DNA of 64,000 nucleotides from Escherichia phage vB_EcoM_E9.1. This document shows, piece by piece, positions 4,616-28,056 of this stretch. Within the stretch, counting starts at the first letter, position 1; every line of letters starts with the position of its first letter. Location of the stretch: sequence record PP886230; one strand, 5' to 3'. A program made the translations under genes and the position numbers. The notes beneath the pieces were generated by a model. The model was not told where the DNA came from and searched no databases. It saw only the letters and a program-made list of their open reading frames with translations.

Positions 4616-4645
4616 AATGAGGGTTTATTTTTACCCTCATTTATA
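4616..4645 (+). terminator. Hairpin after portal gene (9-bp stem aatgagggt/accctcatt, U-rich loop); weak terminator or processing site
   Basis: Perfect inverted repeat 4616-4624 / 4633-4641; downstream T-tract is short. Confidence 0.4.
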
Positions 4646-4667
4646 ATGCATATTTCAAGGAGATCAA

Positions 4668-4895: not shown

Positions 4896-4946
4896 ATCAA
4901 AAATCGCACTTTTTAAAGCTTTTAAAAAAGGCGATTTTATTCAGTA

Positions 4947-4963
4947 CTAAATAATATCATACT
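4947..4963 (+). promoter_or_regulatory. Late-promoter-like motif CTAAATAATATCATACT
   Basis: 16-nt stretch taaataatatcatact is identical to the one upstream of the major capsid gene (7712-7727); resembles the T4 late promoter TATAAATA. Confidence 0.5.
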
Positions 4964-4996
4964 TTATACGAATGTAATATATCTATGGAGGATATA

Positions 4997-5845: not shown

Positions 5846-5865
5846 ATATCTGAAAGGAGATCATT

Positions 5866-6489: not shown

Positions 6490-6500
6490 CATTTTAAAAA

Positions 6501-6532
6501 TATAAATATCTGTATGTTGAAGTACAGATATT
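6501..6532 (+). promoter_or_regulatory. TATAAATA late-promoter box overlapping a 10-bp perfect hairpin (aatatctgta / tacagatatt)
   Basis: TATAAATA at 6501-6508; inverted repeat 6505-6514 / 6523-6532 with 8-nt loop, between protease and scaffold genes. Confidence 0.45.
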
Positions 6533-6555
6533 TCAGTACTTAAAGGAGAGAACGA

Positions 6556-7671: not shown

Positions 7672-7709
7672 ACATTTTAAAGCATTTTAATAATCAAATT
7701 TTTCAGTTC

Positions 7710-7727
7710 TATAAATAATATCATACT
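7710..7727 (+). promoter_or_regulatory. Late promoter TATAAATA plus conserved extension (TATAAATAATATCATACT)
   Basis: Exact T4 late-promoter consensus TATAAATA at 7710-7717, about 45 nt upstream of the capsid gene start. Confidence 0.65.
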
Positions 7728-7762
7728 GAAAAACGAATATAACATCTTTAAGGAGATATATA

Positions 7763-8938: not shown

Positions 8939-8982
8939 TTGTAATAGATTTAAAAGATTTAATCAAGAAATTAAAAACAATA

Positions 8983-9010
8983 GGGACTCTTCGGAGTCCC
9001 TTTTCTTTTT
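8983..9010 (+). terminator. Rho-independent terminator after capsid gene
   Basis: gggactc-ttcg-gagtccc hairpin followed by ttttcttttt. Confidence 0.8.
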
Positions 9011-9013
9011 GTG

Positions 9014-9042
9014 TTGACACACCATCTTTTTTGTGTAATAAT
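9014..9042 (+). promoter_or_regulatory. Sigma70-type promoter (TTGACA-N16/17-TAATAAT)
   Basis: TTGACA at 9014-9019 with -10-like TAATAAT about 17 nt downstream, just after the capsid terminator. Confidence 0.6.
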
Positions 9043-9076
9043 ACGCGTACATTATAAATGAAGAAGAGGAATTTTC

Positions 9077-9997
9077 ATGAAACCAAATGAAGAAAAATTT
9101 ATTAATACAGTGAATGAAAAGTACGGTACTGGTGTGTATTTGTTTGATAAAATGGTATATATTAATGCTCATAAACAGGTTGAACTTTATTGTGTAGAAG
9201 GTGGTCATTATTTCAAAATCACTCCTATGCAAATAGTCCGACCTTCTGCAAAAGGATGTAACATTTGTCAAAAAAACACAGCATACACGACTGAAACGTT
9301 TATTGAAAAAGTTAAAACCATCCATCCAACATTGTCATTTGAGAAAACTATCTACAAAAAACAAAGTGACAGTAATGGGCGAGTCATCGTTACGTGTCAT
9401 AATGATCCGAATGATGTGCATGATTGGATTGTATCTGCCAATACTTTGTTAAGAGGTAAATCAGGGTGTGGTGTTTGTTCTGGTAAAGGCGGGAGGACAT
9501 TGGAGCAATTTGTCAAAGAAGCAAAAAAAGTACATGGTGATGATTATGATTATTCTGAATCATGCTATACTGGTAGTGAAGAATATATGGATATGAAGTG
9601 TAATAATTGCAATGAAAAATTCAAACAACAGCCCAAAGCACACCTTTCAGGACGCGGGTGTCCTAACTGTGGTAAGTATGGATACCAACCATCAAAACCT
9701 GGATATTTCTATGTACAAAAACTAACTAACAATAACAAGACGGTGTACAAATATGGGATCACTGGTGATATGAAACGCCGTGTCAACGAACAAAGCCGCA
9801 ATTCTGAGTTCGAGCATGAAGTACTTATAGAACGCTACTTTGAAGATGGCAATCAACCATTACTGTTGGAAAAGTTCATAAAGAAATACATTGAAAGTGG
9901 TGTTGTAAGTACTGAAGAGTTACCGTCAGGATTTACTGAAACATTTGATGCTAAGTATCTTGAAAGTGTTTTAGAAATTGTAAATACTTTTAAGTAA
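9077..9997 (+). CDS. Homing-endonuclease-like protein: three Cys-rich zinc-ribbon repeats plus C-terminal T5orf172 / GIY-YIG-like domain
   Basis: Three repeats each ending in a CxxC pair (CNICQ, CGVCSG, CPNCG); C-terminus GYFYVQKLTNNNKTVYKYGITGDMKRRVNEQ resembles the T5orf172 signature. Confidence 0.6.
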   Translation: MKPNEEKFINTVNEKYGTGVYLFDKMVYINAHKQVELYCVEGGHYFKITPMQIVRPSAKGCNICQKNTAYTTETFIEKVKTIHPTLSFEKTIYKKQSDSNGRVIVTCHNDPNDVHDWIVSANTLLRGKSGCGVCSGKGGRTLEQFVKEAKKVHGDDYDYSESCYTGSEEYMDMKCNNCNEKFKQQPKAHLSGRGCPNCGKYGYQPSKPGYFYVQKLTNNNKTVYKYGITGDMKRRVNEQSRNSEFEHEVLIERYFEDGNQPLLLEKFIKKYIESGVVSTEELPSGFTETFDAKYLESVLEIVNTFK

Positions 9998-10020
9998 ACA
10001 ATCTAAAGGAGTTGACACGG

Positions 10021-10371
10021 ATGTTAACTGTATACAAATTTAACAAAGAAGAGTACTTAAAGAGTCAGTACTCAAATATAGAAATAAATGTTCCTTATGG
10101 TACGTTAGTTGGATATGATGAAGCCACTGAAACATTGTATTATAATGATGATAGATTGGATTATAGTTTAGATTCTTTCATAGAAGATATACTTAATACA
10201 CATACTGAAGATATGTTGTATGAAGAATACATAGATCATTATAGAGAACGTATGTCGGTGCTGCATTCTGATGCTCCTGTACTAAACATAGCACAAGAAC
10301 CATCGGAATTTCAGCCACATAATCCTTTTCAACGTTTAATTGATATTGGTTTAAAATTCACTATTAGTTGA
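10021..10371 (+). CDS. Hypothetical acidic protein
   Basis: ORF with AAGGAG RBS 9 nt upstream of ATG 10021 (track start 10012 is a TTG); Asp/Glu/Tyr-rich. Confidence 0.6.
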   Translation: MLTVYKFNKEEYLKSQYSNIEINVPYGTLVGYDEATETLYYNDDRLDYSLDSFIEDILNTHTEDMLYEEYIDHYRERMSVLHSDAPVLNIAQEPSEFQPHNPFQRLIDIGLKFTIS

Positions 10372-10410
10372 TAGATAAATATCTCCATATTAATGATGGA
10401 GATTGAATCT

Positions 10411-10719
10411 ATGTCACAGATATGTTATGTTATAATAAACTCTGCATGGCCTGACTATGTTAAGATTGGTTTCACTTCTAAATCTGAAATGACAGAGCGT
10501 TTGAGAACGTATCAGACAGCTACCCCGTTTCGTGATTTTGAAGTTTATCATGAAGTTCACTTTGAAGACGCACGTTTAGCTGAAAAAGAGATACATAAAA
10601 GGCTTAAACAAATGAATGCAACTAGACAACCAAACACAGAGTGGTTTAAAATGTCTAAAAAGATAGCAGCAAACATCATTGATTCTGTGTGGGATGATAT
10701 GGATAACGACTTGCTATAG
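10411..10719 (+). CDS. Stand-alone T5orf172 (GIY-YIG-like) domain protein
   Basis: CYVIINSAWPDYVKIGFTSKSEMTERLRTYQTATP...EWFKM matches the T5orf172 pattern (YVL...KIGxT...R...EWF). GGAG RBS before ATG 10411; track start 10393 is an alternative. Confidence 0.65.
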   Translation: MSQICYVIINSAWPDYVKIGFTSKSEMTERLRTYQTATPFRDFEVYHEVHFEDARLAEKEIHKRLKQMNATRQPNTEWFKMSKKIAANIIDSVWDDMDNDLL

Positions 10720-10759
10720 GAATAAATATAGTATATATTAATCATAAAGGGATTTATAC

Positions 10760-12370
10760 ATGAGCATAAGTTTTAATAACCCATTGGATACAATGACCAG
10801 TACTGGTGCTAATGGATCTTTAGAACTAATAGTGCTTGGTGGTACACCAACTAACCCAAGACCTATTCGTTTTAATTCGTCATCAGTTATTATACCAGTA
10901 CAAACGTTACCTACTGGTGAACAAGGTGCAATGGTTTTTGATCGAAACGAATTAGTTTTGAAGTATCATAACGGTACAAGTTGGATTGCAGTATATGATA
11001 CTGATACTATTTTGGAACCAATTAGAATTTCATTAGATGAAGTAAACAGAAAATTAAATTTAAAAGTAGAAAGTGTAACATACAGTAGTAGTACTGTTCC
11101 TAGTGCAAGTATTAGTGGAACAAACTTAAACATTGTATTCCCTACTGCTTCTAGTGGTGGTTCTGGTCCAACTGGTCTTTACACTTCACTTAAACCTGGT
11201 GCTATTACACAATATTCATTGACTTCTGGTCAATCTGTTGCTAGTATACGTGAACAAATGTCAGGGCAATCGAATGGACAAAGTGGACGAAACGGTTCAC
11301 AAGGTGCTCCGTGGAAAACGTCTGACGGTTGGTGTTTTGCTGATGGTATGTGGTGGCAATGGGAGGGGGAAAATGGTACAATTACCAAACAAGTACCAAA
11401 CCTTAACCAAAACGCGTATTTAAAAGGTATAACAACATCAGGTGTAACTAAAACTGATAGTGTTATTGGTAGTAGTGGTAACATTAGTGGAACTGTATTG
11501 AGTGTTGCCCAGTTACCATCACACTCATTTAGTTTTAGTGGAACCACTGGTGCTGCTGGTCGTCATGGTCATAGTCAAGCACTAAAAGGTATGGACCGTA
11601 GTGGTCTAAATGCGTTAACTTCAAGTAATGATAACGGTATACCAACTGTAATCAATAACATTAACGAAGCACCAGACCACATTCACTCATTTAGTGGAAA
11701 CACTAACACACTTGGTGGAAACCAACCACACTATCATGGTATTAGCAACATTGATGTGGAACACTTTAACGTTGCATACCTATATAACATTGCTGAATCT
11801 AACGTCGCATTGAGTGAAAAAGTTGCAAACACTCGTTATGTACTAAAAACTGGTGATACAATGACTGGTTCATTGACTATTGCAAACAGTGCGTCAATTA
11901 AGTCAAATGATACATCATTAGTTCTATATTTCCGTAACGCAAGCGGTGGTGAGCGTGCGGCAGTGTATCATAACTCTTCAAATAATACATTGAGATTACG
12001 TTCCGGTGGAGCAGAAGTTACTGTAAACTCTTCTGGTACTTTAGCTGCTCCATCATTAACTGTTTCTAACAACTCAGCTACTGTTGGTGGTAAAAATATT
12101 GTTCGTTCAATTAACGGTACTGCTGCTGATGCTAGTGGCAACGTTACTTTGCAAATTAGTACTAATAACGTACAAAGTATTCGTTTGAGTGCACGTATTG
12201 AAACAAGTAAAATACCTGATTCTTCATGGACATATACACCAGAAGGTGCATTTATGGATGGCGTATGGATTTCTGTTAATGGTAGTTCAGGCACTCACTT
12301 AGAACGAATTAGTTATCGCTATGTTCAAATGCAAATAAATGGTAACTGGGAAACAGTACGTCAACAATAA
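10760..12370 (+). CDS. Tail fibre protein with phage tail-collar type His motifs
   Basis: Gly/Ser/Thr/Asn-rich 536 aa with SHSFSFSGTTGAAGRHGHSQ and HIHSFSGNTNTLGGNQPHYHG, reminiscent of T4 gp12/gp37-type fibre motifs. Confidence 0.8.
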   Translation: MSISFNNPLDTMTSTGANGSLELIVLGGTPTNPRPIRFNSSSVIIPVQTLPTGEQGAMVFDRNELVLKYHNGTSWIAVYDTDTILEPIRISLDEVNRKLNLKVESVTYSSSTVPSASISGTNLNIVFPTASSGGSGPTGLYTSLKPGAITQYSLTSGQSVASIREQMSGQSNGQSGRNGSQGAPWKTSDGWCFADGMWWQWEGENGTITKQVPNLNQNAYLKGITTSGVTKTDSVIGSSGNISGTVLSVAQLPSHSFSFSGTTGAAGRHGHSQALKGMDRSGLNALTSSNDNGIPTVINNINEAPDHIHSFSGNTNTLGGNQPHYHGISNIDVEHFNVAYLYNIAESNVALSEKVANTRYVLKTGDTMTGSLTIANSASIKSNDTSLVLYFRNASGGERAAVYHNSSNNTLRLRSGGAEVTVNSSGTLAAPSLTVSNNSATVGGKNIVRSINGTAADASGNVTLQISTNNVQSIRLSARIETSKIPDSSWTYTPEGAFMDGVWISVNGSSGTHLERISYRYVQMQINGNWETVRQQ

Positions 12371-12380
12371 GGAATGTGTA

Positions 12381-12896
12381 ATGCAACTAACAAATTTTAA
12401 GATGTATGAAAAAGAAGGTGGTAATCCTAATTCTTTGTATATGATGTCCGATGAAGGTATGGATTGGTATGAATCTCGTGAATTGTTTGACATTAATAAA
12501 GCAAAATTTATGTATGATATTAACGGTTTAATTGTTTCAGCATCATATAACATTTATGATCTAGTACCTTTAGGTTTTAGTGTTTCTGAAATTGAATATG
12601 ATGGTGATATTAACAAACTTTATGGTATGGTTTACGATGGAAATACTATTCATGACTATATTGAAACTAAAGAAGAAAAAATTGAACGCCTAAAAAATGA
12701 ATTATCTAATTTGAAATACATTGCAATTCAAGAACTTGGACACTTAAAAACGGCTATGGATCTTGAGTTAGCAACTGATGAAGAAGCTGTATTGTTTGTG
12801 AAATTGAAAGATTATGTAACGCAATTGAATTCAATCAAACCAGCAGACATGATCAAGAAAACATTTTCATTTCCAGTTAAACCGGAAAAAAAATGA
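12381..12896 (+). CDS. Tail fibre assembly chaperone (Tfa/gp38-like by position)
   Basis: 171-aa ORF immediately downstream of the fibre gene; AAGGA RBS before ATG 12381 (track start 12339 overlaps the fibre gene). Confidence 0.55.
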   Translation: MQLTNFKMYEKEGGNPNSLYMMSDEGMDWYESRELFDINKAKFMYDINGLIVSASYNIYDLVPLGFSVSEIEYDGDINKLYGMVYDGNTIHDYIETKEEKIERLKNELSNLKYIAIQELGHLKTAMDLELATDEEAVLFVKLKDYVTQLNSIKPADMIKKTFSFPVKPEKK

Positions 12897-12926
12897 GACA
12901 ACACGTAAAGACGTGATACAATTAAG

Positions 12927-12961
12927 TCATCTCACCGATTGTGGTGAGGTGACATTTTTTT
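12927..12961 (+). terminator. Rho-independent terminator
   Basis: 10-bp stem tcatctcacc / ggtgaggtga (one G-U) with 6-nt loop, followed by ttttttt. Confidence 0.75.
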
Positions 12962-12986
12962 GAAAACACACATGGAGAAATACAAA

Positions 12987-13289
12987 ATGGCTAAATCTAA
13001 AAAAGAAGTTAAAGTTGAAATTCGTGATCTAAACGATGAACAACGTAAACGTCTCGGTGACGCACTTAACAACATTGTTGTACAACTAACTTTCATTGAT
13101 GATACCAAAGCATCCTTATCTGATTTTGTTTCTAGTGTTTCTGATGAACTTGGTATCGATGCATCTGATATCAAACAAGCTGCACAACGTATGTACAAAG
13201 GTGATTACTTTGACAAACAAAATAAACTCGATAATATCGAAACTATTCTTAGTGTTACTAATAATCTTCCACAAGCAGATGATTACTAA
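12987..13289 (+). CDS. Hypothetical protein
   Basis: ORF with GGAG RBS 9 nt upstream of ATG 12987; track start 12960 is a TTG. Confidence 0.6.
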   Translation: MAKSKKEVKVEIRDLNDEQRKRLGDALNNIVVQLTFIDDTKASLSDFVSSVSDELGIDASDIKQAAQRMYKGDYFDKQNKLDNIETILSVTNNLPQADDY

Positions 13290-13311
13290 TTAGTACTAAA
13301 ATATATTAAAT

Positions 13312-13339
13312 AGCCTCCAATGACGGAGGCTTTCTTTTT
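13312..13339 (+). terminator. Rho-independent terminator
   Basis: agcctcc-aatgac-ggaggct hairpin followed by ttcttttt. Confidence 0.8.
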
Positions 13340-13368
13340 AACTTAATAAACGTAAGGGAATACAAACG

Positions 13369-16300
13369 ATGTATATCGATGCTTATATGGAACGTAAACG
13401 TACTGGTGATATTCTTCATGTAGTTGAACGTAAGAATGGTAAACGTATTCTACGCGAATTAGATCCAGTATATGAATATTATGTTGAATCCCCACAAGGA
13501 ACACATAAAACTGTTTATGGTACAATGGCTAAACATTTTGAGTTTCAAACTCAAGCTCAAATGAATAAAAGTGTAGAGCAACACAAAAGTGAAGGTCTAC
13601 GTATTTTTGAAAGTGATTGTAACATTACATTTAAAACATTAGCTAAAGAATATATGGGAAAAGGTTCACCCGATTTGAACATCGTGTTCTTCGATATCGA
13701 GACTGATTTCCATAAGAAATTTGGTTATGCTCCACCATCAGACCCGTTTAACCGAGTAACCGCTATTTCTCTATATCAATCATGGACTGGAAAGGATTAT
13801 GTACTTACTTTACCACCTGCTGATATGGAAATTTATGAAGCACAAGATATTGTTCGCCAACTAAATGAAGAAACAAACGATCCTAACAGTACTGTAATTT
13901 TATATACAGACGAAAAGGAAATGTTTATGGAATTCTTTAGTTTAATTGATGATTCTGATGTTATTTCAGGATGGAATAGTGAATTCTTTGATATTCCATA
14001 TATGATCAATCGAACTAAAAAAATCTTCAATGAAGCAACAACTGCTCGTTGGTGTTTATGGAATAAAAAACCAAATTCACGTGAAGCAGACAACTTTGGT
14101 AAAACTGTTCAAACATATGATCTGGTAGGTCGCGTCCATCTTGATTATTTGGCTTTGTATAAGAAACATGCTGGTCAAGTTGAACAATCTTATAAACTAG
14201 ATTATATTGCTGAAAAAGTAACTAAAGAAAATAAAGTATCCTATGAAGGTTCATTGGATAAACTTTACAGAGAGGATTACATTACTTTCTTGCGTTATTC
14301 TAAACAGGATAGTATTCTTCTTAAAAAGATTGATGCTAAATGTGACTATATCAACCTACACAATCGACTTGCACACAAAGAATGTGTACTTATCAGTACA
14401 ACAATGGGTTCAGTAGCACTAATCGACACTGCTATTATCAACTTAGCACATACTCGTGGTGAAGTTGTTTTCAACAAAGCACCGAAAGATGATCTTGAGT
14501 TTGATCCAGAAATGGAATATTATGGTGAAGATGGTGAAGAAGAAGATGAGAAAATTAGTGCAAAAGCAGCAGGTGCATGGGTACAAGATCCAGTACTAGG
14601 ACTTGTAAGTGACCTTGGGTGTACTGACTTTAACTCTCTTTACCCTACTGTTCTACGTACTTTGGGTATGAGTACTGAATGTATTCTTGGTCAATTACGT
14701 CAAGATTACACCGATGCGTATCTTGCAGCTAAAATCCAAGAACAGAAGAACAAATCTAAATCTAAATCATTTGAACCAGATTGGACTGCGGCATGGCATG
14801 GTTTATTTGCTGCTGTTGAATTTACAATGGTTCATGAAAAGTCAGAAGAAACATTGATTGTTGATTTAGAAGATGGGAGTTCTTTTAAAGCAACGGGCAA
14901 AGAGCTATATGATATTATTTTTGCAGAAGATAGTACTATTGTACTTAGTGCAAACGGAACACTTTTTGATAAGTCTAAGTCTGGTGTAATTCCTGACATT
15001 CTAACTCAATGGTATTCTGAACGTAAAGCACAGCAAAAAATGGTCATTGACTACAAACATATGTATACTGATGGTTGGGAGTTTAATGGCTATGAAAAAG
15101 TCGAACCACTACTATCAAACTATACCCCTGGTACAATGTTTAGAACTAATATTCATGATAATGATCCTGTATACTTACTTCGTAAAGAAATTGGTAAAGG
15201 ACAGTGGGATGAAGTTGCTAAGTTGATTGTAGAAAACGGATTAGTACTAAAAGATGGTCGTATTTTCTGTCCTAAAGAAGAAAAAGATTACTTCAAACAA
15301 CGTAGTGCTTTCTGGAAACAGAACCAACAGATTCGTAAGATTCTTCTAAACAGTCTATATGGTGCACTATTGAACAAAGGTTCTCGTTTTTTTGACAAAC
15401 GTTTAGGTCAATCCGTAACATTAACTGGACGTTCTATGACCAAACATATGGCAAGTCGTATCAATGAAATTACTACTGGTGTATATAACCACCAAGGTGG
15501 TTCAGTAATTTATGGTGATACTGACTCAGTTTACTTTAGTGTAACTCATTATCTGAAAGAACAAGGTATTCCATATAATCTATCTAAAGAAGAGATTGTT
15601 GATATGTATATTAAAATTGGTGAAGAAGTTGGTGAATCTTTCCCATCATTTATGCATGAGATGTTCAACACTGGTATTGAAAAAGGTAAGATTGTTGGTG
15701 CAGACCTTGAGATGGTTGGTTCGCGTGGCCTATTCTTGAAGAAAAAACGTTATGCAATTCTGAAGTACTGGGAAGATGGGTTCCGTAAAGATATTGATGG
15801 TAAACCAGGTGAAATCAAAGCGATGGGTCTTGAAATTAAACGCTCAGACACGCCAAAATACATCCAGAACTTCCTAGAAGAGACTCTAATCGCATTACTG
15901 GTAGGTGAGAGTGAACAACAGCTAAAACAGCGTGTACGTGAGTTTAAGGACGTATTTAAGGATATGCCTGTACATGAAAAAGGTTCACCAAAAACTGTAA
16001 AAAACTACACTAATTTAGAGGCTGAATATCAGCTAACTGGTAAGTGTAAAGTTGGTCACGTTCTTGCTGGTATCCAATGGAACCGTCTACGTGAAGTTTA
16101 TGATGATAAATCTGTTCCAGAAGTAACAGATGGAACAAAAGTAATTGTCTGTAACTTAAAAGATAATCCTATGGGAATTAAAGCAGTTGGTTATCCAATT
16201 GACTGTGTTGAGTATCTTCCAGAATGGTTCTTGGAACTACCATTTGATACTGAAAAAATGGAAGAGATTGTTCTAACTAAAAAATTAGAGAATATTTTTG

Positions 16301-16374
16301 GTATTTTGGATATGGATATTGGTATTCATGAAAAAAGTACTGCGTCAGTAAACAATGGATTCTTCACTTGGTAA
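13369..16374 (+). CDS. gp43: DNA polymerase, family B (T4 gp43-like)
   Basis: 1001 aa; Pol C motif VIYGDTDSVYFSV, Pol A-like LYPTVLRTLG and Pol B-like KILLNSLYGAL; N-terminal exonuclease-like FFDIETD. Confidence 0.95.
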   Translation: MYIDAYMERKRTGDILHVVERKNGKRILRELDPVYEYYVESPQGTHKTVYGTMAKHFEFQTQAQMNKSVEQHKSEGLRIFESDCNITFKTLAKEYMGKGSPDLNIVFFDIETDFHKKFGYAPPSDPFNRVTAISLYQSWTGKDYVLTLPPADMEIYEAQDIVRQLNEETNDPNSTVILYTDEKEMFMEFFSLIDDSDVISGWNSEFFDIPYMINRTKKIFNEATTARWCLWNKKPNSREADNFGKTVQTYDLVGRVHLDYLALYKKHAGQVEQSYKLDYIAEKVTKENKVSYEGSLDKLYREDYITFLRYSKQDSILLKKIDAKCDYINLHNRLAHKECVLISTTMGSVALIDTAIINLAHTRGEVVFNKAPKDDLEFDPEMEYYGEDGEEEDEKISAKAAGAWVQDPVLGLVSDLGCTDFNSLYPTVLRTLGMSTECILGQLRQDYTDAYLAAKIQEQKNKSKSKSFEPDWTAAWHGLFAAVEFTMVHEKSEETLIVDLEDGSSFKATGKELYDIIFAEDSTIVLSANGTLFDKSKSGVIPDILTQWYSERKAQQKMVIDYKHMYTDGWEFNGYEKVEPLLSNYTPGTMFRTNIHDNDPVYLLRKEIGKGQWDEVAKLIVENGLVLKDGRIFCPKEEKDYFKQRSAFWKQNQQIRKILLNSLYGALLNKGSRFFDKRLGQSVTLTGRSMTKHMASRINEITTGVYNHQGGSVIYGDTDSVYFSVTHYLKEQGIPYNLSKEEIVDMYIKIGEEVGESFPSFMHEMFNTGIEKGKIVGADLEMVGSRGLFLKKKRYAILKYWEDGFRKDIDGKPGEIKAMGLEIKRSDTPKYIQNFLEETLIALLVGESEQQLKQRVREFKDVFKDMPVHEKGSPKTVKNYTNLEAEYQLTGKCKVGHVLAGIQWNRLREVYDDKSVPEVTDGTKVIVCNLKDNPMGIKAVGYPIDCVEYLPEWFLELPFDTEKMEEIVLTKKLENIFGILDMDIGIHEKSTASVNNGFFTW

Positions 16375-16385
16375 GGAGTAATAAT

Positions 16386-16535
16386 ATGGTTATTGTAAAT
16401 GAAATTGAACTAAACTATGACGAAGTAAACGATACTTTCACTAATGAGATGTTGAATCTTACTGAAGAAAGTGTAAATGAGGCATGGGAAAAATATGTAG
16501 AATGGACTTCATTACAAGGTAAAAATGATGAGTAA
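16386..16535 (+). CDS. Small hypothetical protein (49 aa), not in supplied ORF track
   Basis: ATG 16386 preceded by AAGGAG (16373-16378); acidic; overlaps start of next gene by 11 nt. Confidence 0.5.
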   Translation: MVIVNEIELNYDEVNDTFTNEMLNLTEESVNEAWEKYVEWTSLQGKNDE

Positions 16536-16824
16536 TATATATAAGCGTATTGGTGAAGTATTAGAAGGTAATGGTATCATTAATTCTGTACTAGCATATG
16601 ATAATGATGAAGAAGTAGTTCTAATTGGTGCGGGTTTTACTCGCACTGGTTCAGTGGAAGTTGACGGAGAGATTGCTGATGTTTACACTCTTGTGAAAAA
16701 GCGTAAAGTTGTTTTTGTCGATGATGTACATACATTAAAAGACTTGAAAAAATTACGAGATAAAATTGGCATGAGTTCTACAATTGATAAGCCTTATCTT
16801 CAACGTTGGAATACAAAATACTGA
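16525..16824 (+). CDS. Hypothetical protein
   Basis: 99-aa ORF in the gene array between polymerase and clamp genes. Confidence 0.6.
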   Translation: MMSNIYKRIGEVLEGNGIINSVLAYDNDEEVVLIGAGFTRTGSVEVDGEIADVYTLVKKRKVVFVDDVHTLKDLKKLRDKIGMSSTIDKPYLQRWNTKY

Positions 16825-16833
16825 TAAAAAATT

Positions 16834-16861
16834 GAGACAAGCATCATTTTTGAGATATAAT
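16834..16861 (+). promoter_or_regulatory. Sigma70-like promoter GAGACA-N16-TATAAT
   Basis: gagaca 16834-16839, 16-nt spacer, tataat 16856-16861; upstream of the clamp gene. Confidence 0.6.
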
Positions 16862-16925
16862 GGTGCTTGTAGTAATCTTACATAAAAACATTTTTTGATT
16901 AACAAATAAAACGGAGAATTATATA

Positions 16926-17657
16926 ATGGATCTACGCAACGTACTACGTGACCTCGTAAACACAACCAGTGGTATTGACTTCTCTTGTATTGCAGTAAGC
17001 AGTGAAGACCGTGGTGAAGGACAACGTGTATATCTAGAAGCGTACACAGATGACCGAACTCTTGTAATGCGAGCATATACTAAAGAAGATGTTCCTGAAG
17101 TTCAGGGTCGTTTTGGCTTAGGTAATCTAGGTCTTCTTCAGGGTCTAATGTCTCTAAAAACATACAGTACCGAAGGAACCACAATCACATCAAATGTTAA
17201 AGATGGTTCAGTTAAAAGTCTGGCATTTAAATCTGAAGATGCAAGCACTACATTTATGGTACAAGCTGAAAAACTTATTCCAGTTCAACCACGTTTTCAT
17301 GAACAACCATATGACGTACAGGTTATTCCTAGTGCAGCAAAAGTTCAGGAACTAAAGAGTTTTTCTGGTGTATTTAAATCTTTTAGTTCTCTTGTAACTC
17401 CGTATACTGAAGGCGACACCCTATACTTTCACGTTGGTGAGAAAAACAAAAGTAACCACGTTGGTTCTCTAGCTTTTTCTAAAACTGAAGGTGAATTAGG
17501 TCTTGGTTTTGGTTATAATATTGATCGCGTACTTCAAGCATTATCTCGCGTATCTAATGCCGAATCAGTATCACTTGGTATTACTAAAACTGGTATGCTA
17601 AATGTAACACTAGATACTGGAATTGCAGTATACAAATTTTACGTAACAGGCTGCTAA
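16926..17657 (+). CDS. gp45: Sliding clamp (T4 gp45-like)
   Basis: 243 aa; N-terminus MDLRNVLRDLVNTTSGIDFSCIAVSS resembles T4 gp45 N-terminus (MKLSKDTTALLKNFATINSGIMLKSG); size and placement fit. Confidence 0.7.
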   Translation: MDLRNVLRDLVNTTSGIDFSCIAVSSEDRGEGQRVYLEAYTDDRTLVMRAYTKEDVPEVQGRFGLGNLGLLQGLMSLKTYSTEGTTITSNVKDGSVKSLAFKSEDASTTFMVQAEKLIPVQPRFHEQPYDVQVIPSAAKVQELKSFSGVFKSFSSLVTPYTEGDTLYFHVGEKNKSNHVGSLAFSKTEGELGLGFGYNIDRVLQALSRVSNAESVSLGITKTGMLNVTLDTGIAVYKFYVTGC

Positions 17658-17686
17658 TATAAATAACGGGGAACACTATGTTCCCC
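17658..17686 (+). promoter_or_regulatory. TATAAATA late-promoter box followed by hairpin ggggaaca-cta-tgttcccc
   Basis: TATAAATA at 17658-17665 directly after the clamp stop codon; 8-bp stem 17668-17675 / 17679-17686 matches the topoisomerase terminator stem at 60489-60507. Confidence 0.5.
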
Positions 17687-17721
17687 AAATTAGTTTGATT
17701 TAAAAAGTAAAGGAATACAAA

Positions 17722-17928
17722 ATGCCATTATATACATATCGTTGTGAAAAAGAAGAATGCAAACATAGCATGGAAAAAATTGTTAAAATTGCAAATCGTG
17801 ATGAACCTCATGATTGTCCTAAATGTAATGGTGAAAAAACTATGAAGTTGGAAGTGTTCACTCCAGGTGATAAGGGTGCTAATCTTTATTTCCGTGGAAA
17901 ATGGTTTGCAAATACTGGAGGTTACTGA
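17722..17928 (+). CDS. FmdB-family zinc-ribbon protein
   Basis: MPLYTYRCEKEECKH...HDCPKCNG: YxYxC...C / C-P-x-C arrangement typical of FmdB-type zinc ribbons. Confidence 0.7.
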   Translation: MPLYTYRCEKEECKHSMEKIVKIANRDEPHDCPKCNGEKTMKLEVFTPGDKGANLYFRGKWFANTGGY

Positions 17929-17929
17929 T

Positions 17930-18229
17930 ATGAAAATTAAAATGATTAATGATTACGTTCTTGTTCGACAAATTGAAGCACAGAATAAAAGTACTGGTGG
18001 TATTATTCTAGGTAATGTTGAACCACCATGTATTGGGATGGTAATTTCCGTTGGTCCAGGTAAAATTCTTCCGAACGGACAACTTGCAGAACATAATATT
18101 AAAGAAGGTGATATGGTTGTGTTTGGTCGTTCATCTTTGAACACACCACTGACTGAAGATCTTGGTGGCGGTGAAGATACATATTATGTAATGAAAATCG
18201 AAGAGATTTTTGGTAAGAAAAATGGCTAA
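17930..18229 (+). CDS. GroES-like co-chaperonin (functional analogue of T4 gp31)
   Basis: MKIKMINDYVLVRQIEAQNKSTGGIILGNVEPP...GMVISVGPGKILPNG aligns with bacterial GroES ([27 protein letters not shown]...GEVVAVGPGRILENG). Start set at ATG 17930; the track extension from 17867 overlaps the upstream gene. Confidence 0.85.
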   Translation: MKIKMINDYVLVRQIEAQNKSTGGIILGNVEPPCIGMVISVGPGKILPNGQLAEHNIKEGDMVVFGRSSLNTPLTEDLGGGEDTYYVMKIEEIFGKKNG

Positions 18230-18947
18230 AAAGAAATTTATTCCATTTTGGATGGTCCCTGCTCACTGGGGACTTTCTGGAAAGGCAAAAGAGATAGCTA
18301 AAGCATACTACTACAATGATGATTATGAAGCTGATATGAAAGTTGCTGAATTGACATATCTAACTCCATATGAAGTTGAAGTGGCCCAATTGGATATTAA
18401 AAAGAAATATAGCGTAATTGGAGATTTGGAATATCTAATTGCTGCACTTGATGTTGAACTAAAATATTCTAAAATTACTCGTGAACAGTATGATGTTAAA
18501 GTTCTTGATGCAAAACTAAGTATTGGAGTTATTACAGAAAAAGAATATGATATGGAAATCATTGAGTTAATGCCAGAAGGTGATGAAAAAAGGCTTAAGG
18601 CTATTGAATTTGCATATCGTTACGATGAAATCACACAAAGTGAATATTCTAAGGAAATATACACACTTCGTAAAGAACCTTGGATTGATTTGGATGTTGT
18701 TCTTGATCCTGAAACTAATGAAGTTGAGTTTGTATTTGACTATAATGAATATTTCTGGAAAAAGTTGAAAGCTGAAGGTCATCCAGGAAATGATGAAGAA
18801 GAAATTATCGATAACTTTGTGAGAGACTTGGGGCGTAAACTTGCTACGGATGATTTCAGTGATGATTACGACACAAAGCTGGTGAGTGCGAACGAAGGAT
18901 TAGACAAGCTACCTGGTTTGCCTGAAGGATTTCGTTCATATAGATAA
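18222..18947 (+). CDS. Hypothetical protein with three I-T-x-x-(E/Q)-Y repeats
   Basis: ORF; ATG 18222 overlaps GroES stop (ATGGCTAA). Repeats ITREQYDVKVL / ITEKEYDMEII / ITQSEYSKEIY. Confidence 0.6.
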   Translation: MAKKKFIPFWMVPAHWGLSGKAKEIAKAYYYNDDYEADMKVAELTYLTPYEVEVAQLDIKKKYSVIGDLEYLIAALDVELKYSKITREQYDVKVLDAKLSIGVITEKEYDMEIIELMPEGDEKRLKAIEFAYRYDEITQSEYSKEIYTLRKEPWIDLDVVLDPETNEVEFVFDYNEYFWKKLKAEGHPGNDEEEIIDNFVRDLGRKLATDDFSDDYDTKLVSANEGLDKLPGLPEGFRSYR

Positions 18948-18952
18948 CATAT

Positions 18953-18986
18953 AAAAAAAGGAGAGCAAATGCTCTCCTTTTCTTTT
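18953..18986. terminator. Bidirectional rho-independent terminator between convergent genes
   Basis: aaaaaaa-ggagagc-aaat-gctctcc-ttttctttt: hairpin with A-tract on one side and T-tract on the other. Confidence 0.8.
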
Positions 18987-18994
18987 GAAAAATA

Positions 18995-19684
18995 TTAAAC
19001 CAATGCTGGGATGTATTGGAAAAGTTTAACACCGAAATCACCTGCTGCATCAGCAGATTGGGAACGTAGGTAAACTTCGGTAACACCATCTTTAGCAAGT
19101 AGTGGAACACCAGTTAGATCATCAATTAGTAGACGGCCTTCTTCGGATTCAGTACTTGGTACACCTTGTGGTGATTTAAGATCTTTGTTAAAGACACCCG
19201 CACGTTCAACTAGGAAGGTAACAACAGAAGCATCAGCAATACTAACTGAACCTGCACTCAATACACCATCAGGTGCGTTGGTGAAACCAGTAACTGGAAA
19301 TACTTCAAGACCATTACCTGCGATGTTAGAGGTAGCGATGATAACCGCACGTTGTTGAACAACATCGACAATACGTTTAACGTTAGTTTGTGCTGCATAA
19401 GATGCATTGTAATCAGCTTCTAGTGTGCCAAGAACAAATGCAGTTCCATCAATACGTTTGATACCTTTATCATTTAGATATGCTAGAATTTCTTCTGGAA
19501 TATCAGTGTTTAGAAAACGTTGTAGACCAGCATAAGAAGAAACTGCACCAGTAACTAGAACGTTTACGTCTCCTAGCTTACTGATAGCAATGGATGCTAG
19601 GGCGTTAGTGCCACAAAAGTAACCTAGAATACGTTCAAAGGAATAACCATTGATACGTTCAAAAGAAGTATTAGTATATGACAT
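18995..19684 (-). CDS. Late-expressed putative virion structural protein (paralog A)
   Basis: 229 aa on minus strand with AGGAGG RBS; shares QQRAV and ER(A/Q)GVFNK blocks with the adjacent upstream ORF. Confidence 0.7.
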   Translation of the reverse strand: MSYTNTSFERINGYSFERILGYFCGTNALASIAISKLGDVNVLVTGAVSSYAGLQRFLNTDIPEEILAYLNDKGIKRIDGTAFVLGTLEADYNASYAAQTNVKRIVDVVQQRAVIIATSNIAGNGLEVFPVTGFTNAPDGVLSAGSVSIADASVVTFLVERAGVFNKDLKSPQGVPSTESEEGRLLIDDLTGVPLLAKDGVTEVYLRSQSADAAGDFGVKLFQYIPALV

Positions 19685-19698
19685 AATCTATCCTCCTA

Positions 19699-20298
19699 TT
19701 ATAGTTGAACAGGAAGAGCAGCACGTACTTTAATTGCTACAGCAGTAGATGCACCTGCATCACCAACACCATCAGTACCTTGACTTACGAAAGTTTTGGT
19801 ACGGAAAACTTTAGCTTGAGCGATAGACTTAGCTAGGTCAACAGTTGGATCAACTGGAGCAGGACATGCTGAACCAGGACGAACTTCTTGCTTGTTAAAT
19901 ACGTCTTGACGTTCACAGATGAAAGTCAATGCAACAGAATTAGCACCACCTGCTACATCAGCACCACTAGTGCCGAACGCAACTACGTTTGGATTAGCAT
20001 TTTTGAAATCAGCAGGAATAACAACTTCTGAATCAAGAGCTAGTAGAGAGGTAGTAACTAGAACTGCACGTTGTTGTAGTAGTTGGGTAACCATGAATAG
20101 GTTATATTGAGCATTACTTAGAGCAGTTTGATACGCTTCAGCTTGAACATCAGAACCGTCAGAAGTAACTTTGGTAGTACCTAGTTCAACATCAGTTGGT
20201 AGATCGATTACGATGGTAACGAAACCGTTATTACCACCCCACCATTCGCGAGCAACGCTAGACATACCATAGTTACGGTTAAAAGAATTAAGACTCAT
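19699..20298 (-). CDS. Late-expressed putative virion structural protein (paralog B)
   Basis: 199 aa; AAGGAG RBS; paralog of 18995..19684; driven by late-promoter motif at 20401..20418. Confidence 0.7.
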   Translation of the reverse strand: MSLNSFNRNYGMSSVAREWWGGNNGFVTIVIDLPTDVELGTTKVTSDGSDVQAEAYQTALSNAQYNLFMVTQLLQQRAVLVTTSLLALDSEVVIPADFKNANPNVVAFGTSGADVAGGANSVALTFICERQDVFNKQEVRPGSACPAPVDPTVDLAKSIAQAKVFRTKTFVSQGTDGVGDAGASTAVAIKVRAALPVQL

Positions 20299-20400
20299 GA
20301 AAATCTCCTTGTCAAATTTTGTGCAGGTATATCCTGCTTAAAGTTATTTATCAAAAAATATCACTAGCATTTAAATTTACTGAGATATTTAATGAATTTC

Positions 20401-20418
20401 TATGATATTATTTATCAA
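20401..20418 (-). promoter_or_regulatory. Late-promoter motif (minus strand) GATAAATAATATCATAG
   Basis: Reverse complement contains ataaataatatcata, 15 nt identical to the capsid-gene late promoter region. Confidence 0.55.
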
Positions 20419-20423
20419 ATCTG

Positions 20424-25707
<5,284 letters not shown>

Positions 25708-25833: not shown

Positions 25834-26868
25834 ATGAAATCTCTAGCTGAAATTCGTGCACACCTAAAAGCAGAACAAGAAAAAGCAGAAGCTCAAAAGA
25901 ATGGTACATTTACTGGTGAGCGTAAAGCTGATTCGTTCTTAGCTTTCTGGAACGTACCTTATAACGAACCACTAAACCTACGTTTTCTACCAGATGCAGA
26001 TGAGTCTAACCCATTCTTCTGGCGTGAACGTGACATGATTAACCTAACTTTCAATGGTGTAGTCGGTATGCACACTGATAAAGTTACCGTTCAAGTACCT
26101 TGTAACGAAATGTGGGTTCCTAAATCCTGTCCGGTTCTGAAAGAAGTACGTCAATGGTTCCAAAGTGCGAATGAAACAGGGAACGAAGAACTAAAAGCAA
26201 TGGCTGGTCGTTACTGGAAGAAGAAAACCTATCTAATGCAATGTTTTATTGCTCCTGATAGCGTTGCAGTAAAAGACGACATTGCACCAGAAAATCCAAT
26301 TCGTCGTATTCTGGCTAACAAAGATATCTTTGATAAAGTTAAATCCATCCTGCTAAATCCAGGCATCAAAGAGTCTCCAACTCACTACGTTCAAGGTCGT
26401 GATTTTGGTATTGTTAAAACTAAGAATGGTGGTGGTTATAATAGCTACGACATGTCTCAATTCTCCATGTCTGAGCGTCCACTAAACGAAGAAGAACTAG
26501 CAGCAATTGAAAAATATGGCCTATACAATCTAAATGATTTTATGCCAAAACAACCAACTCCAGAAGAGTTGAAAGCAATTGAAGAAATGTTCGAAGCATC
26601 AGTAAATGGTGAAGCATATGATCCAGCACGTTGGGCATTTGCATATCGTCCAGCAGGTGTACCAAAACCTAACTCTGGAACTGTTACTGAATCAAAACCA
26701 ACTCCTGCTCCAGTACAACAAGAGTCAGCACCTGCACCAGTTACACCAGCCCCACAAGCTGCTCCAGTAACTCCAGTCGCTACCCCAGCAGCAACCACTC
26801 CTGAAGCACCAAAAGAACAACTATCTGCATCTGCACTAGTTGCTCGTTTGAAACAACAAGGTAAGTAA
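25834..26868 (+). CDS. gp32: Single-stranded DNA-binding protein (T4 gp32 family)
   Basis: LNLRFLPDADESNPFFW parallels T4 gp32 (AVIRFLPSKNDEQAPF); Cys pair VPCNEMWVPKSCPV fits the zinc site; Pro/Ala/Thr-rich C-terminal tail. Confidence 0.8.
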   Translation: MKSLAEIRAHLKAEQEKAEAQKNGTFTGERKADSFLAFWNVPYNEPLNLRFLPDADESNPFFWRERDMINLTFNGVVGMHTDKVTVQVPCNEMWVPKSCPVLKEVRQWFQSANETGNEELKAMAGRYWKKKTYLMQCFIAPDSVAVKDDIAPENPIRRILANKDIFDKVKSILLNPGIKESPTHYVQGRDFGIVKTKNGGGYNSYDMSQFSMSERPLNEEELAAIEKYGLYNLNDFMPKQPTPEELKAIEEMFEASVNGEAYDPARWAFAYRPAGVPKPNSGTVTESKPTPAPVQQESAPAPVTPAPQAAPVTPVATPAATTPEAPKEQLSASALVARLKQQGK

Positions 26869-26915: not shown

Positions 26916-26937
26916 CATGAAATTCAAGGAGCGAATT

Positions 26938-28056
26938 ATGAAAATGACAAGTGGTTTTGCGAACATTCTTAAAAACAGTACTGGTAGTGTTAAAAAGAAT
27001 ACTGGTGTTAGTGTTGGTTTTCATGATCCAGATACATGGGTTAGTACTGGTAACTACGCACTAAATTATCGCATCAGTGGCTATTTTGACCGTGGTATCC
27101 CACTAGGCAAAGTAACGATGTTTGCTGGTGAATCAGGTAGTGGTAAATCTTTTATCGTATCTGGTAATATTGCACGTGAAGCTCAAAAACAAGGCATCTT
27201 TGTTGTTATGATTGACTCAGAGAACGCATTGGATTCAGATTGGCTTCAAGCACTTGGTGTTGACACTTCTGAAGAAAAACTTTTGAAAGTCAATATGGGT
27301 ATGATTGGTGACGTTGCAAAATTCACCTATGAGTTCATTGAAGGATATCGTAAAGAATACGAAAATACACCTAAAGATGAACGTCAAAAAGTATTGTTTA
27401 TTATTGATTCAATTGGTATGCTAAACACTGAAGTAGCCAATGATCAAATGAAAGCGGGTAACCTTAAAGGTGACATGGGTCATAAACCCAAACAGCTTAA
27501 AGCATATATCACAAACTGTGTAAACTCTATTGGTTCATTGAACATTGGTATGGTTTGCGTTAACCACAGTTATGAATCTCAGGACATGTTTAACCCAGAT
27601 CCTAAAGTTTCAGGTGGTAGTGGCTTGATTTATGCTTCATCTATGGTTATCGCAATGGGTAAATTAAAACTTAAAGAAGATGAAGACGGAAATAAAACTT
27701 CCGAAGTAAATGGTATTCGTGCTAAATGTAAAGTCATGAAGACTCGTTACAACAAGCCGTTCGAAGATGTAGAAATTAAAATTCCTTGGGATAAAGGTAT
27801 GGACCCACGTAGTGGTCTACTAGATATGTTTGAAAAATACGGTCTAATCACTAAATCAGGTAACCGTCTATTGTATGTTGATATTGTAACTGGCGAACAG
27901 ATTCTAAAATATCGCAAAGAGTGGATGCGTAATGAAGATTCATGTCTTGATTTGGTAATGCATCAATTTAAAAATCATCCTTTGATTGAAGAAGTTAAAG
28001 AAGAAGAAAAAGGTGATGAAACTTTTGGTACTGATGTGGATATTAGTGAGGAATAA
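26938..28056 (+). CDS. uvsX: RecA-like recombinase UvsX
   Basis: Walker A GESGSGKSF, RecA-type core; AGGAG RBS favours ATG 26938 over the track start 26917. Confidence 0.85.
   Translation: MKMTSGFANILKNSTGSVKKNTGVSVGFHDPDTWVSTGNYALNYRISGYFDRGIPLGKVTMFAGESGSGKSFIVSGNIAREAQKQGIFVVMIDSENALDSDWLQALGVDTSEEKLLKVNMGMIGDVAKFTYEFIEGYRKEYENTPKDERQKVLFIIDSIGMLNTEVANDQMKAGNLKGDMGHKPKQLKAYITNCVNSIGSLNIGMVCVNHSYESQDMFNPDPKVSGGSGLIYASSMVIAMGKLKLKEDEDGNKTSEVNGIRAKCKVMKTRYNKPFEDVEIKIPWDKGMDPRSGLLDMFEKYGLITKSGNRLLYVDIVTGEQILKYRKEWMRNEDSCLDLVMHQFKNHPLIEEVKEEEKGDETFGTDVDISEE

What the first reader, a model, noticed from the sequence alone, without database searches (positions are those of the whole stretch)
18995..20298. 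Two late-expressed structural-protein paralogs on the minus strand with strong RBSs
Adjacent minus-strand genes (229 and 199 aa) share conserved blocks (QQRAV, ER(A/Q)GVFNK) and each has a near-perfect Shine-Dalgarno (AGGAGG, AAGGAG). They are driven by a late-promoter 15-mer identical to the capsid gene's. This predicts abundant virion components such as tail tube or decoration proteins that have been duplicated.
Basis: partly seen in the sequence, partly recalled or inferred. Interest (0 to 1): 0.45.

Follow-up and report, generated by a model that had tools for sequence, protein, structure and literature searches.

The report
Two abundant paralogous jumbo-phage virion proteins
Two neighbouring genes of a RaK2/121Q-type giant E. 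coli phage encode related, very abundant virus-particle proteins; this has been known since 2013, they are almost certainly not the tail tube once proposed, and they may be the still-unassigned outer layer of the capsid.

Summary
Window 19699-20298(-) and 18995-19684(-) encode 199-aa and 229-aa proteins that are true paralogs. Each has a strong ribosome-binding site. They form a two-gene unit behind two T4-like late-promoter boxes, one of them a 15-mer identical to the one upstream of the major capsid gene, and the unit ends at a hairpin terminator.

The window is an Asteriusvirus jumbo phage (121Q/PBECO4/phAPEC6/SP27). The pair is already published. RaK2 gp106w/gp107w (2013) were described as two distantly related, abundant, unprocessed virion proteins. 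Their orthologs are at or near the top of three virion proteomes (RaK2, CBB, phAPEC6).

New here:
- Both AlphaFold models are confident and share a ferredoxin-like alpha/beta core. It resembles no solved tail tube, sheath or decoration protein.
- Genes matching tail-tube PHROG families sit next to the sheath gene elsewhere in the genome.
- The pair's codon bias ranks just behind the capsid gene and above the sheath and tube genes.
- The double promoter is conserved in four divergent lineages.

The tail-tube idea is therefore disfavoured. The best guess (about 0.5) is that these are the unassigned outer capsid lattice proteins seen in the phAPEC6/121Q cryo-EM maps. The finding is real but largely known, and of modest interest.

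The parts
19699..20298 (-). First gene of the operon: 199-aa, 20.9-kDa, acidic (pI 4.76) virion protein. Ortholog of RaK2 gp107w, phAPEC6 gp210, 121Q gp618 and CBB_271.
   Evidence: ORF. PHROG 9326 E=1.3e-86. 100% identical to the phAPEC6, 121Q and PBECO4 proteins. Detected by virion MS. AF2 pLDDT 86, pTM 0.81. Codon index rank 2 of 134.
18995..19684 (-). Second gene of the operon: 229-aa, 24.3-kDa, acidic (pI 4.58) paralog. It carries an insertion of about 32 aa (two helices, residues 51-73) and extra C-terminal strands. Ortholog of RaK2 gp106w, phAPEC6 gp211, 121Q gp617 and CBB_270.
   Evidence: ORF. PHROG 9326 E=3.4e-86. AF2 pLDDT 82, pTM 0.78. Family alignment. MS. Codon index rank 4 of 134.
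20401..20415 (-). Distal late-promoter-like box, ATAAATAATATCATA. It is identical to the 15-mer upstream of the major capsid gene and forms part of the repeated TTTGATAAATAA.
   Evidence: D7. A distal ATAAATA box is conserved in CBB, L007 and L009.
20345..20351 (-). Proximal late-promoter-like box, ATAAATA (within TTTGATAAATAAC), 45 nt before the ATG. The spacing matches that of the capsid-gene box.
20323..20337 (-). 5'-leader hairpin GCAGG-ATATA-CCTGC, between the proximal box and the RBS. The stem is conserved in phage CBB with a different loop.
   Evidence: sequence conservation. (folds at -9.1 and -11.4 kcal/mol, z -2.4 and -2.9).
20305..20310 (-). Shine-Dalgarno AAGGAG of the 199-aa gene, 6-nt spacer.
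19692..19697 (-). Shine-Dalgarno AGGAGG of the 229-aa gene. It lies in the 14-nt intergenic spacer, 1 nt after the upstream stop codon. There is no promoter box between the genes, so they are read as one bicistronic unit.
18953..18984 (.). G+C-rich hairpin flanked by an A-run and a T-run. It sits between the pair and the convergent gene 18210-18947 and looks like a bidirectional intrinsic terminator.
   Evidence: the only terminator-like site in 18700-20700. (I1).
7711..7725 (+). The identical 15-mer late box upstream of the major capsid protein gene (7763-8938). Listed for comparison.
4948..4961 (+). A 14-mer copy of the same extended box, upstream of the head gene 4985-5845 (PHROG 15696; codon index rank 3). 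Listed for comparison.

Best explanation
The locus is a self-contained, bicistronic late operon. It lies on the opposite strand to almost every other gene in the window. It consists of two tandem T4-type late-promoter boxes, a small 5' hairpin, a strong RBS, the 199-aa gene, a 14-nt spacer with a second strong RBS, the 229-aa gene and a bidirectional terminator.

The operon produces two anciently duplicated, acidic proteins that are not proteolytically processed. They share a ferredoxin-like alpha/beta core and a conserved but disordered N-terminal arm. They are incorporated into the virion in very high copy number.

The most likely role is an inference, not a demonstration. I propose they are the outer, second-layer capsid (decoration/cement) proteins that cryo-EM of phAPEC6 and 121Q shows as elongated densities around every hexamer, meeting across local two-fold axes and present in about as many copies as the 1620 major capsid subunits, and which were never assigned to a gene. 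They would bind after capsid maturation and so escape the prohead protease. Possibly they act as a heterodimer bridging neighbouring capsomers and stabilising the very large T=28 shell. They are not the tail tube.

The confidence of 0.5 refers to the capsid-lattice role. That these are paralogous, late-expressed, abundant virion proteins is near certain (above 0.95).
For: Shown:
- Operon anatomy.
- Paralogy.
- Presence and top-ranked coverage in three independent virion proteomes, with orthology confirmed by tblastn and synteny.
- Visible SDS-PAGE bands at the predicted mass, meaning no cleavage, in RaK2. CBB_270's 91.3% coverage can only be reached if the N-terminal tryptic peptide 5-20 was detected.
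- Both AF2 models are confident, have the same order of secondary-structure elements, and hit the same generic ferredoxin-like set. Nothing tail-like appears.
- Tail-tube-family genes (PHROG 4542/45) lie immediately downstream of the 888-aa sheath gene and are separately detected in virions at lower coverage.
- The MCP-trained codon index ranks the pair 2nd and 4th of 134 ORFs, above scaffold (9th), sheath (11th) and tube (19th). CTA-Leu is 68-73% and CGT-Arg 86-100%, like the MCP.
- Tandem ATAAATA boxes are conserved in four lineages. A gp55-like late sigma factor is annotated in the same genome. The ATAAATA late motif was described for CBB and GAP32.

Inferred:
[quoted passage not shown] The pair are the most abundant unassigned virion proteins.
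- Acidic pI (4.6-4.8) and lack of processing fit an external protein added after maturation better than a DNA-embedded internal protein.
Against: - No direct localisation exists. MS sequence coverage and codon bias are only proxies for copy number.
- The phAPEC6 authors explicitly could not assign the outer density from their MS data. They did not exclude that it is an extra domain of the capsid protein itself.
- Other high-coverage unassigned proteins exist in phAPEC6: gp347 (75%), gp306c (66%) and gp253 (66%).
- The fold matches no known decoration or cement protein, so there is no homology support.
- The heterodimer idea is untested because no multimer prediction was available.
- One distant lineage (L007) has only one family member at the conserved locus.
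- The extended promoter box is not head-specific. It also precedes a spanin gene.
Confidence: 0.5

Rival explanations
1. One or both proteins form the tail tube. This was the original suggestion for RaK2 gp106w/gp107w and is one of the first reader's options.
For: Size (21-24 kDa), abundance and predicted beta content were the basis of the RaK2 proposal. RaK2's Table S3 labels them 'putative tail protein'.
Confidence: 0.04
2. They are other high-copy tail-surface proteins. An example is the decoration rings seen at two levels of the phAPEC6 tail, or anchors for the 'hairy' sheath fibres.
For: phAPEC6 and CBB tails carry unassigned decoration proteins and fibre bases. The pair is unprocessed and acidic, as expected for any external protein.
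Against: Tail decorations at two or three annular levels would amount to tens of copies. That does not fit the top coverage in three proteomes or the capsid-level codon bias. The pair is equally conserved in RaK2, for which tail hairs were not reported.
Confidence: 0.13
3. They are internal head proteins that build the rod-like 'inner body' (about 91 x 18 nm) seen in bubblegrams of 121Q and phAPEC6.
For: The inner body is large, unassigned and would need hundreds of copies of small proteins. The pair is abundant.
Against: Both proteins are acidic (pI 4.6-4.8), which is unfavourable for a structure embedded in DNA. They are not cleaved although the phage has a T4-type prohead protease that trims the capsid protein. 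From general knowledge, internal proteins of T4 and phiKZ are processed. The phAPEC6 authors favoured the RCC1-like proteins for the inner body.
Confidence: 0.15
4. The two paralogs occupy different capsid sites. One forms the hexagonal outer network. The other forms the dimeric fibre-anchoring knob at hexamer centres or the dome at the vertices.
For: The cryo-EM maps show at least three unassigned external capsid components. The 229-aa type has an extra helical insertion and tends to give more peptides than the 199-aa type.
Against: Nothing discriminates this from the heterodimer model. This is a sub-variant of the best explanation rather than a true rival, and its probability is contained within the 0.5 given there.
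Confidence: 0.15

Closest known systems
RaK2 gp106w/gp107w family (PHROG 9326); orthologs phAPEC6 gp211/gp210, 121Q gp617/gp618, CBB_270/CBB_271, GAP32 gp264/gp265
   Same: Same family and same locus. The order GroES, virion protein, the pair on the opposite strand, RNase H, terminase is conserved. The 199-aa protein is 100% identical to those of phAPEC6, 121Q and PBECO4. The literature describes the pair as distantly related, abundant and unprocessed virion proteins.
   Different: Nothing differs at the sequence level. This report adds the fold, the codon-bias ranking, the conserved double promoter, and the argument against the published tail-tube suggestion.
T4 Soc (small outer capsid protein) and other capsid cement or decoration proteins such as lambda gpD
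   Same: Proposed functional analogy only. These are late-expressed, unprocessed, high-copy accessory proteins bound to the outside of a gp23-type capsid at capsomer interfaces. The capsid protein here is Pfam Gp23. The Soc and gpD properties are from general knowledge.
   Different: No sequence or fold similarity was found. These proteins are 2-3 times larger than Soc, occur as two paralogs, and have a ferredoxin-like core. Capsid binding has not been demonstrated.
T4 gp19-type tail tube proteins (PHROG 45/4542)
   Same: Similar size and abundance in myovirus particles.
   Different: The fold differs and there is no profile match. The gene position is not next to the sheath gene. Separate genes matching tail-tube PHROG families are present next to the sheath.
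T4 late promoters (TATAAATA, read by the gp55 late sigma factor)
   Same: The core ATAAATA lies 40-55 nt upstream of structural-gene start codons. A gp55-like factor is encoded in the same genome. The motif was previously reported for CBB and GAP32.
   Different: Both boxes at this locus read GATAAATA, whereas the capsid gene has a perfect TATAAATA. The tandem arrangement and the extended ...ATATCATA version are particular to a few very highly expressed genes. No transcript mapping is available.

Membership tests
PHROG 9326 / RaK2 gp106w-gp107w virion protein family | Full-length profile match | tested here: met
   E=3.4e-86 and 1.3e-86, covering profile positions 1-195 of 195. The family alignment has invariant Q, R, V, S, E, R columns.
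PHROG 9326 / RaK2 gp106w-gp107w virion protein family | Conserved locus: on the opposite strand between the GroES-proximal virion gene and the RNase H/terminase genes | tested here: met
   Same order in 121Q, phAPEC6, SHEFM2K, CBB and two metagenomic relatives.
PHROG 9326 / RaK2 gp106w-gp107w virion protein family | Physical presence in purified virions | not testable with these tools
   Published MS covers identical or orthologous proteins in phAPEC6, CBB and RaK2. This is literature evidence, not measured here.
Tail tube proteins (T4 gp19 type) | Tail-tube fold | tested here: not met
Tail tube proteins (T4 gp19 type) | Sequence or profile similarity to tail tube families | tested here: not met
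   No Pfam or PHROG tail-tube hit for the pair. By contrast, the genes downstream of the sheath hit PHROG 4542 at about 1e-80 to 1e-86, and two of the three also hit PHROG 45 weakly.
Tail tube proteins (T4 gp19 type) | Gene adjacent to the sheath gene in the tail module | tested here: not met
   The pair lies in a replication and packaging region of the window. The sheath and tube module lies elsewhere in the genome.
Known capsid decoration/cement proteins (T4 Soc/Hoc, lambda gpD and others) | Sequence or structural similarity to a characterised decoration protein | tested here: not met
Known capsid decoration/cement proteins (T4 Soc/Hoc, lambda gpD and others) | Binding to the exterior of the mature capsid at a stoichiometry tied to the capsid protein | not testable with these tools
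   Only indirect evidence exists: unassigned outer density with MCP-like copy number, top MS coverage and MCP-like codon bias.
Known capsid decoration/cement proteins (T4 Soc/Hoc, lambda gpD and others) | Not processed by the prohead protease (added after maturation) | tested here: inconclusive
   The RaK2 gel mobility equals the predicted mass. The coverage arithmetic for CBB_270 requires the N-terminal peptide to have been detected. This is consistent but indirect.
T4-type late promoter | TATAAATA-like core at an appropriate distance upstream of a late gene | tested here: met
   GATAAATA at -53 and -117 relative to the ATG. The capsid gene has TATAAATA at -52. The tandem boxes are conserved in four lineages.
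T4-type late promoter | Late-specific transcription start dependent on the gp55-like sigma factor | not testable with these tools
   A gp55-like factor is annotated in the same genome and in CBB. No transcript data are available.

The most novel reading that the evidence does not exclude
The two paralogs define a previously unrecognised class of capsid cement protein. The class has a ferredoxin-like core and a conserved N-terminal arm, and is restricted to the RaK2-like jumbo phages. [quoted passage not shown] This would be a Soc-like solution that arose independently to stabilise very large gp23-type shells. The ancient duplication would have turned a homodimeric bridge into a heterodimeric one.
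Probability: 0.35. Interest if true: 0.5.

Novelty: already known. Interest (0 to 1): 0.3.

Why it matters
These are among the most abundant proteins in the particles of a widespread group of 350-kb phages of E. coli, Klebsiella, Salmonella, Erwinia and related hosts. Several of these phages are being developed for therapy. Thirteen years after the proteins were first seen, their place in the virion is still unassigned.

Removing the tail-tube label and pointing to the unassigned outer capsid layer gives structural biologists a concrete pair of models to fit into the existing 121Q and phAPEC6 maps. If confirmed, the pair would show how T=28 capsids are reinforced and would offer a high-copy surface display site. 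As a genome-scan finding, however, it mostly rediscovers published knowledge.

Tried and rejected
- Pfam scan of both proteins: only a sub-threshold GLMA_C hit.
- Sequence search of the PDB: nothing meaningful.
- Foldseek against BFVD: only family members and uncharacterised phage proteins.
- afdb50 fold search: the library was unavailable.
- Profile search of the 5.8-billion-protein collection and exhaustive HMM search of 1.84 billion representatives: the family stays small (109 and 42 clusters). It has no informative domain fusions. The single 1054-aa hit is a spurious partial match to a Laminin_G/He_PIG repeat protein.
- The phiKp24 capsid paper was checked and set aside. That phage has a different 597-aa capsid protein and no decoration proteins.
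- The Sharanji paper and the 2026 jumbo-phage review contain nothing on these proteins. The 121Q supplements hold no protein identifications.
- I tested whether the extended 14/15-mer promoter is head-specific. It is not, because it also precedes a spanin gene, and the sheath and tube genes have plain ATAAATA boxes. I do not use it as evidence for a head location.
- The 'hemagglutinin repeat-containing protein' label on phAPEC6 gp211 has no support in Pfam or in the predicted structure and was disregarded.

Full report
WHAT IS THERE

The window is a segment of an Asteriusvirus jumbo myophage. A 1.7-kb query around the finding is 99-100% identical to Escherichia phages SP27, 121Q, PBECO4, phAPEC6 and SHEFM2K and to several Salmonella isolates.

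The two ORFs exist exactly as described: 19699-20298(-), 199 aa, and 18995-19684(-), 229 aa. Apart from one ORF at 49962-50642 and a spurious antisense ORF inside the gene at 4985-5845, they are the only minus-strand ORFs of 150 aa or more in the 64-kb window. They are convergent with 18210-18947(+) and divergent from the RNase H/FEN gene starting near 20456-20507(+).

PARALOGY

- Direct BLASTP gives 35% identity over 89 aa, E=8e-9.
- Both proteins match PHROG 9326 ('virion structural protein') over its whole length at about 1e-86.
- In a 104-sequence alignment of both subfamilies they align from end to end at about 25% identity. The Q, R, V, S columns (QQRAV..TS) and the E, R columns (ER..VF.K) are invariant. 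There are also nearly invariant residues in the N-terminal arm (R, G, G, N) and at the C-terminus (K, P).
- The 229-aa type differs mainly by an insertion of about 32 residues.
- A 30-nt stretch of DNA across the QQRAV block is still 80% identical.
- Both subtypes occur in distant lineages, so the duplication is old. One metagenomic lineage has a single copy at the conserved locus.

EXPRESSION SIGNALS

AAGGAG lies at 20305-20310 with a 6-nt spacer. AGGAGG lies at 19692-19697 with a 7-nt spacer, 1 nt after the upstream stop codon.

The 15-mer ATAAATAATATCATA at 20401-20415(-) is identical to 7711-7725(+), just upstream of the major capsid gene (Pfam Gp23, E=1e-89). A 14-mer copy lies upstream of the head gene at 4985. 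Taken alone, a shared 15-mer anywhere in the window occurs in 12% of Markov simulations, so the argument rests on position and conservation.

There is a second, proximal box (TTTGATAAATAA, repeated 64 nt from the first) 45 nt from the ATG. That is the same spacing as for the capsid and scaffold genes. Two tandem ATAAATA boxes precede the first gene of the pair in the window (-117, -53), in phage CBB (-127, -60) and in two metagenomic relatives (-102, -47 and -82, -45).

ATAAATA was previously proposed as the late promoter of CBB and GAP32 by analogy with T4 TATAAATA. A gp55-like late sigma factor is annotated in the same genome.

No box lies between the two genes in the window or in CBB, so they form a bicistronic unit. 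A GCAGG/CCTGC hairpin in the leader is conserved between the window and CBB. The only terminator-like hairpin in the region, flanked by an A-run and a T-run, lies between the pair and the convergent gene.

WHAT WAS ALREADY KNOWN

The RaK2 paper (PMC3622015) describes ORF106w (24.6 kDa) and ORF107w (21.1 kDa) as 'two distantly related proteins'. They were visible on SDS-PAGE of virions at their predicted masses. On the basis of size, abundance and beta propensity, the authors suggested that one of them may be the tail tube.

- In RaK2's Table S3 they have the two highest sequence coverages of all 54 virion proteins: 55.4% and 53.5%, against 26.5% for the capsid protein and 28.3% for the sheath.
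- In CBB the orthologs (confirmed by tblastn and synteny) are CBB_270, with 91.3% coverage, the maximum of the coverage range the paper reports, and CBB_271, with 56.4%.
- In phAPEC6, whose 199-aa protein is 100% identical to the window's, gp210 and gp211 have 69.8% and 69.9%. The capsid protein has 74.9% and the sheath 68.0%.

STRUCTURE

AlphaFold2 with the family alignment gives confident models: 199 aa with pLDDT 86 and pTM 0.81, and 229 aa with pLDDT 82 and pTM 0.78.

The order of secondary-structure elements is the same in both: a disordered N-arm, a strand, a long helix, a sheet, a helix and a final strand. The insertion of two helices and some extra strands is in the larger protein.

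The tail-tube and sheath predictions are not borne out.

WHERE THE TAIL TUBE REALLY IS

In the near-identical SHEFM2K genome, the 888-aa sheath gene is followed directly by three genes that match tail-tube PHROGs. The matches to 4542 are at 1e-80 to 1e-86, the match to 13438 is at 8.5e-227, and two of the three also hit PHROG 45 weakly. I equate these by size and position with phAPEC6 gp275c, gp274c and gp273c and with RaK2 gp042/gp043. All of those were detected in virions at 9-30% coverage. The tube role is already filled.

HOW MUCH IS MADE

Both genes share the capsid gene's unusual codon choice: CTA for 68-73% of Leu and CGT for 86-100% of Arg. Most genes in the window use CTA for 0-30% of Leu.

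With a codon index trained on the capsid gene, the pair rank 2nd and 4th of 134 ORFs across 164 kb of this genome. They rank ahead of the scaffold (9th), sheath (11th), main tube gene (19th) and portal (68th). This is a proxy, but it points to capsid-level rather than tail-level expression.

MOST LIKELY ROLE

Cryo-EM of phAPEC6 at 10 A, and of 121Q, shows a T=28 shell of 1620 gp23-type subunits. It is overlaid by an elongated second-layer protein that forms a hexagonal network. [quoted passage not shown] There are also a hexamer-centre fibre anchor and a vertex dome.

The pair are the most abundant unassigned virion proteins. They are acidic (pI 4.6-4.8) and are not processed. The CBB_270 coverage can only be reached if the N-terminal peptide 5-20 was seen. 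All of this fits an external protein added after the prohead protease has acted.

I therefore favour an outer capsid lattice (cement/decoration) role at about 0.5, possibly as a heterodimer. The rivals are the inner body (0.15), some other tail-surface protein (0.13) and the tail tube (0.04). None of these localisations is demonstrated.

DISTRIBUTION AND NOVELTY

tblastn finds the family in 73 phage records, from hosts in Escherichia, Klebsiella, Salmonella, Erwinia, Yersinia, Serratia, Pectobacterium, Cronobacter, Xanthomonas and Vibrio. All 40 records listed are jumbo phages of this group or fragments of them. An exhaustive HMM search of 1.84 billion representative proteins finds only 42 clusters, so this is a narrow, clade-specific family.

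As an observation this is already known. The added value here is the fold, the rejection of the tail-tube label, the expression evidence and a testable capsid assignment.

Noticed in passing
window 7763-8938, 4985-5845, 18995-20298, 25834-26868, 41119-41775: A small set of genes uses CTA for 60-80% of Leu codons and CGT for nearly all Arg codons, whereas most genes use CTA for 0-30% of Leu. The set comprises the capsid gene, a prohead-core-like gene, the pair, the gp32-like SSB gene and one PHROG 14154 virion gene. CTA is rare in E. coli (general knowledge), which suggests dependence on a phage-encoded tRNA. No tRNA gene lies in this window.
   Followed up: partly
window 20323-20337 (-) and L004 about 2455-2474: A conserved 5'-leader hairpin (GCAGG...CCTGC) lies between the proximal late box and the RBS of the 199-aa gene. 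The stem is kept in phage CBB with a different, longer loop. It may be an mRNA-stabilising or regulatory element.
   Followed up: partly
window 19620-19667 (-): A tandem 24-nt repeat (79% identical) encodes FERINGYS/FERILGYF in the disordered but conserved N-terminal arm of the 229-aa protein. In the orthologs compared, from other genera, only a degenerate version is present.
   Followed up: no
window 18210-18947 (+): The convergent neighbour (PHROG 13349, very acidic, pI 4.65) is annotated as a virion protein. By position and size its RaK2 counterpart is gp105, which was detected in virions (21.7% coverage). It is absent from the phAPEC6 list. The ORF listing gives a TTG start that overlaps the GroES-like gene, whereas public annotations use a start about 12 nt downstream.
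   Followed up: no
window 25834-26868 and 26917-28056; window 16926-17657: According to the phAPEC6 proteome, the gp32-like SSB, the UvsX/RecA-like recombinase and the 243-aa protein of unknown function (gp215c) are found in purified virions. This is unusual for replication and recombination proteins.
   Followed up: no
L009 (GCA_020049715.1 contig), about 2200-20650: A distant relative carrying the same locus encodes QueC, PTPS (QueD-like), GTP cyclohydrolase I and a radical-SAM protein nearby. That gene set suggests 7-deazaguanine DNA modification. In this lineage the second paralog has its own ATAAATA box, and a third, unrelated 267-aa gene precedes the pair on the same strand.
   Followed up: no
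window 20449-20513: Two similar ATG contexts (ATTATCAATGAAAA and ATTTACAATGAAAA, 51 nt apart) give alternative starts for the divergent RNase H/FEN gene. Public annotations disagree on its length (281 versus 328 aa; the ORF listing gives 345 aa). The longer versions would bring its start within about 40 nt of the distal late box of the pair.
   Followed up: no
L006 31776 (-): A fourth copy of the extended late box (CTAAATAATATCATC) precedes the Rz-like spanin gene. The extended motif therefore marks some late genes that are not head genes.
   Followed up: partly
proteins P0142, P0144, P0146 (290-300 aa family members from metagenomes): Some distant family members carry an extra Gly-rich segment of about 80 aa with repeated GGSGY/GGSGF motifs, inserted close to the C-terminus. 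It has no Pfam match. An added surface module would fit an exposed location.
   Followed up: no
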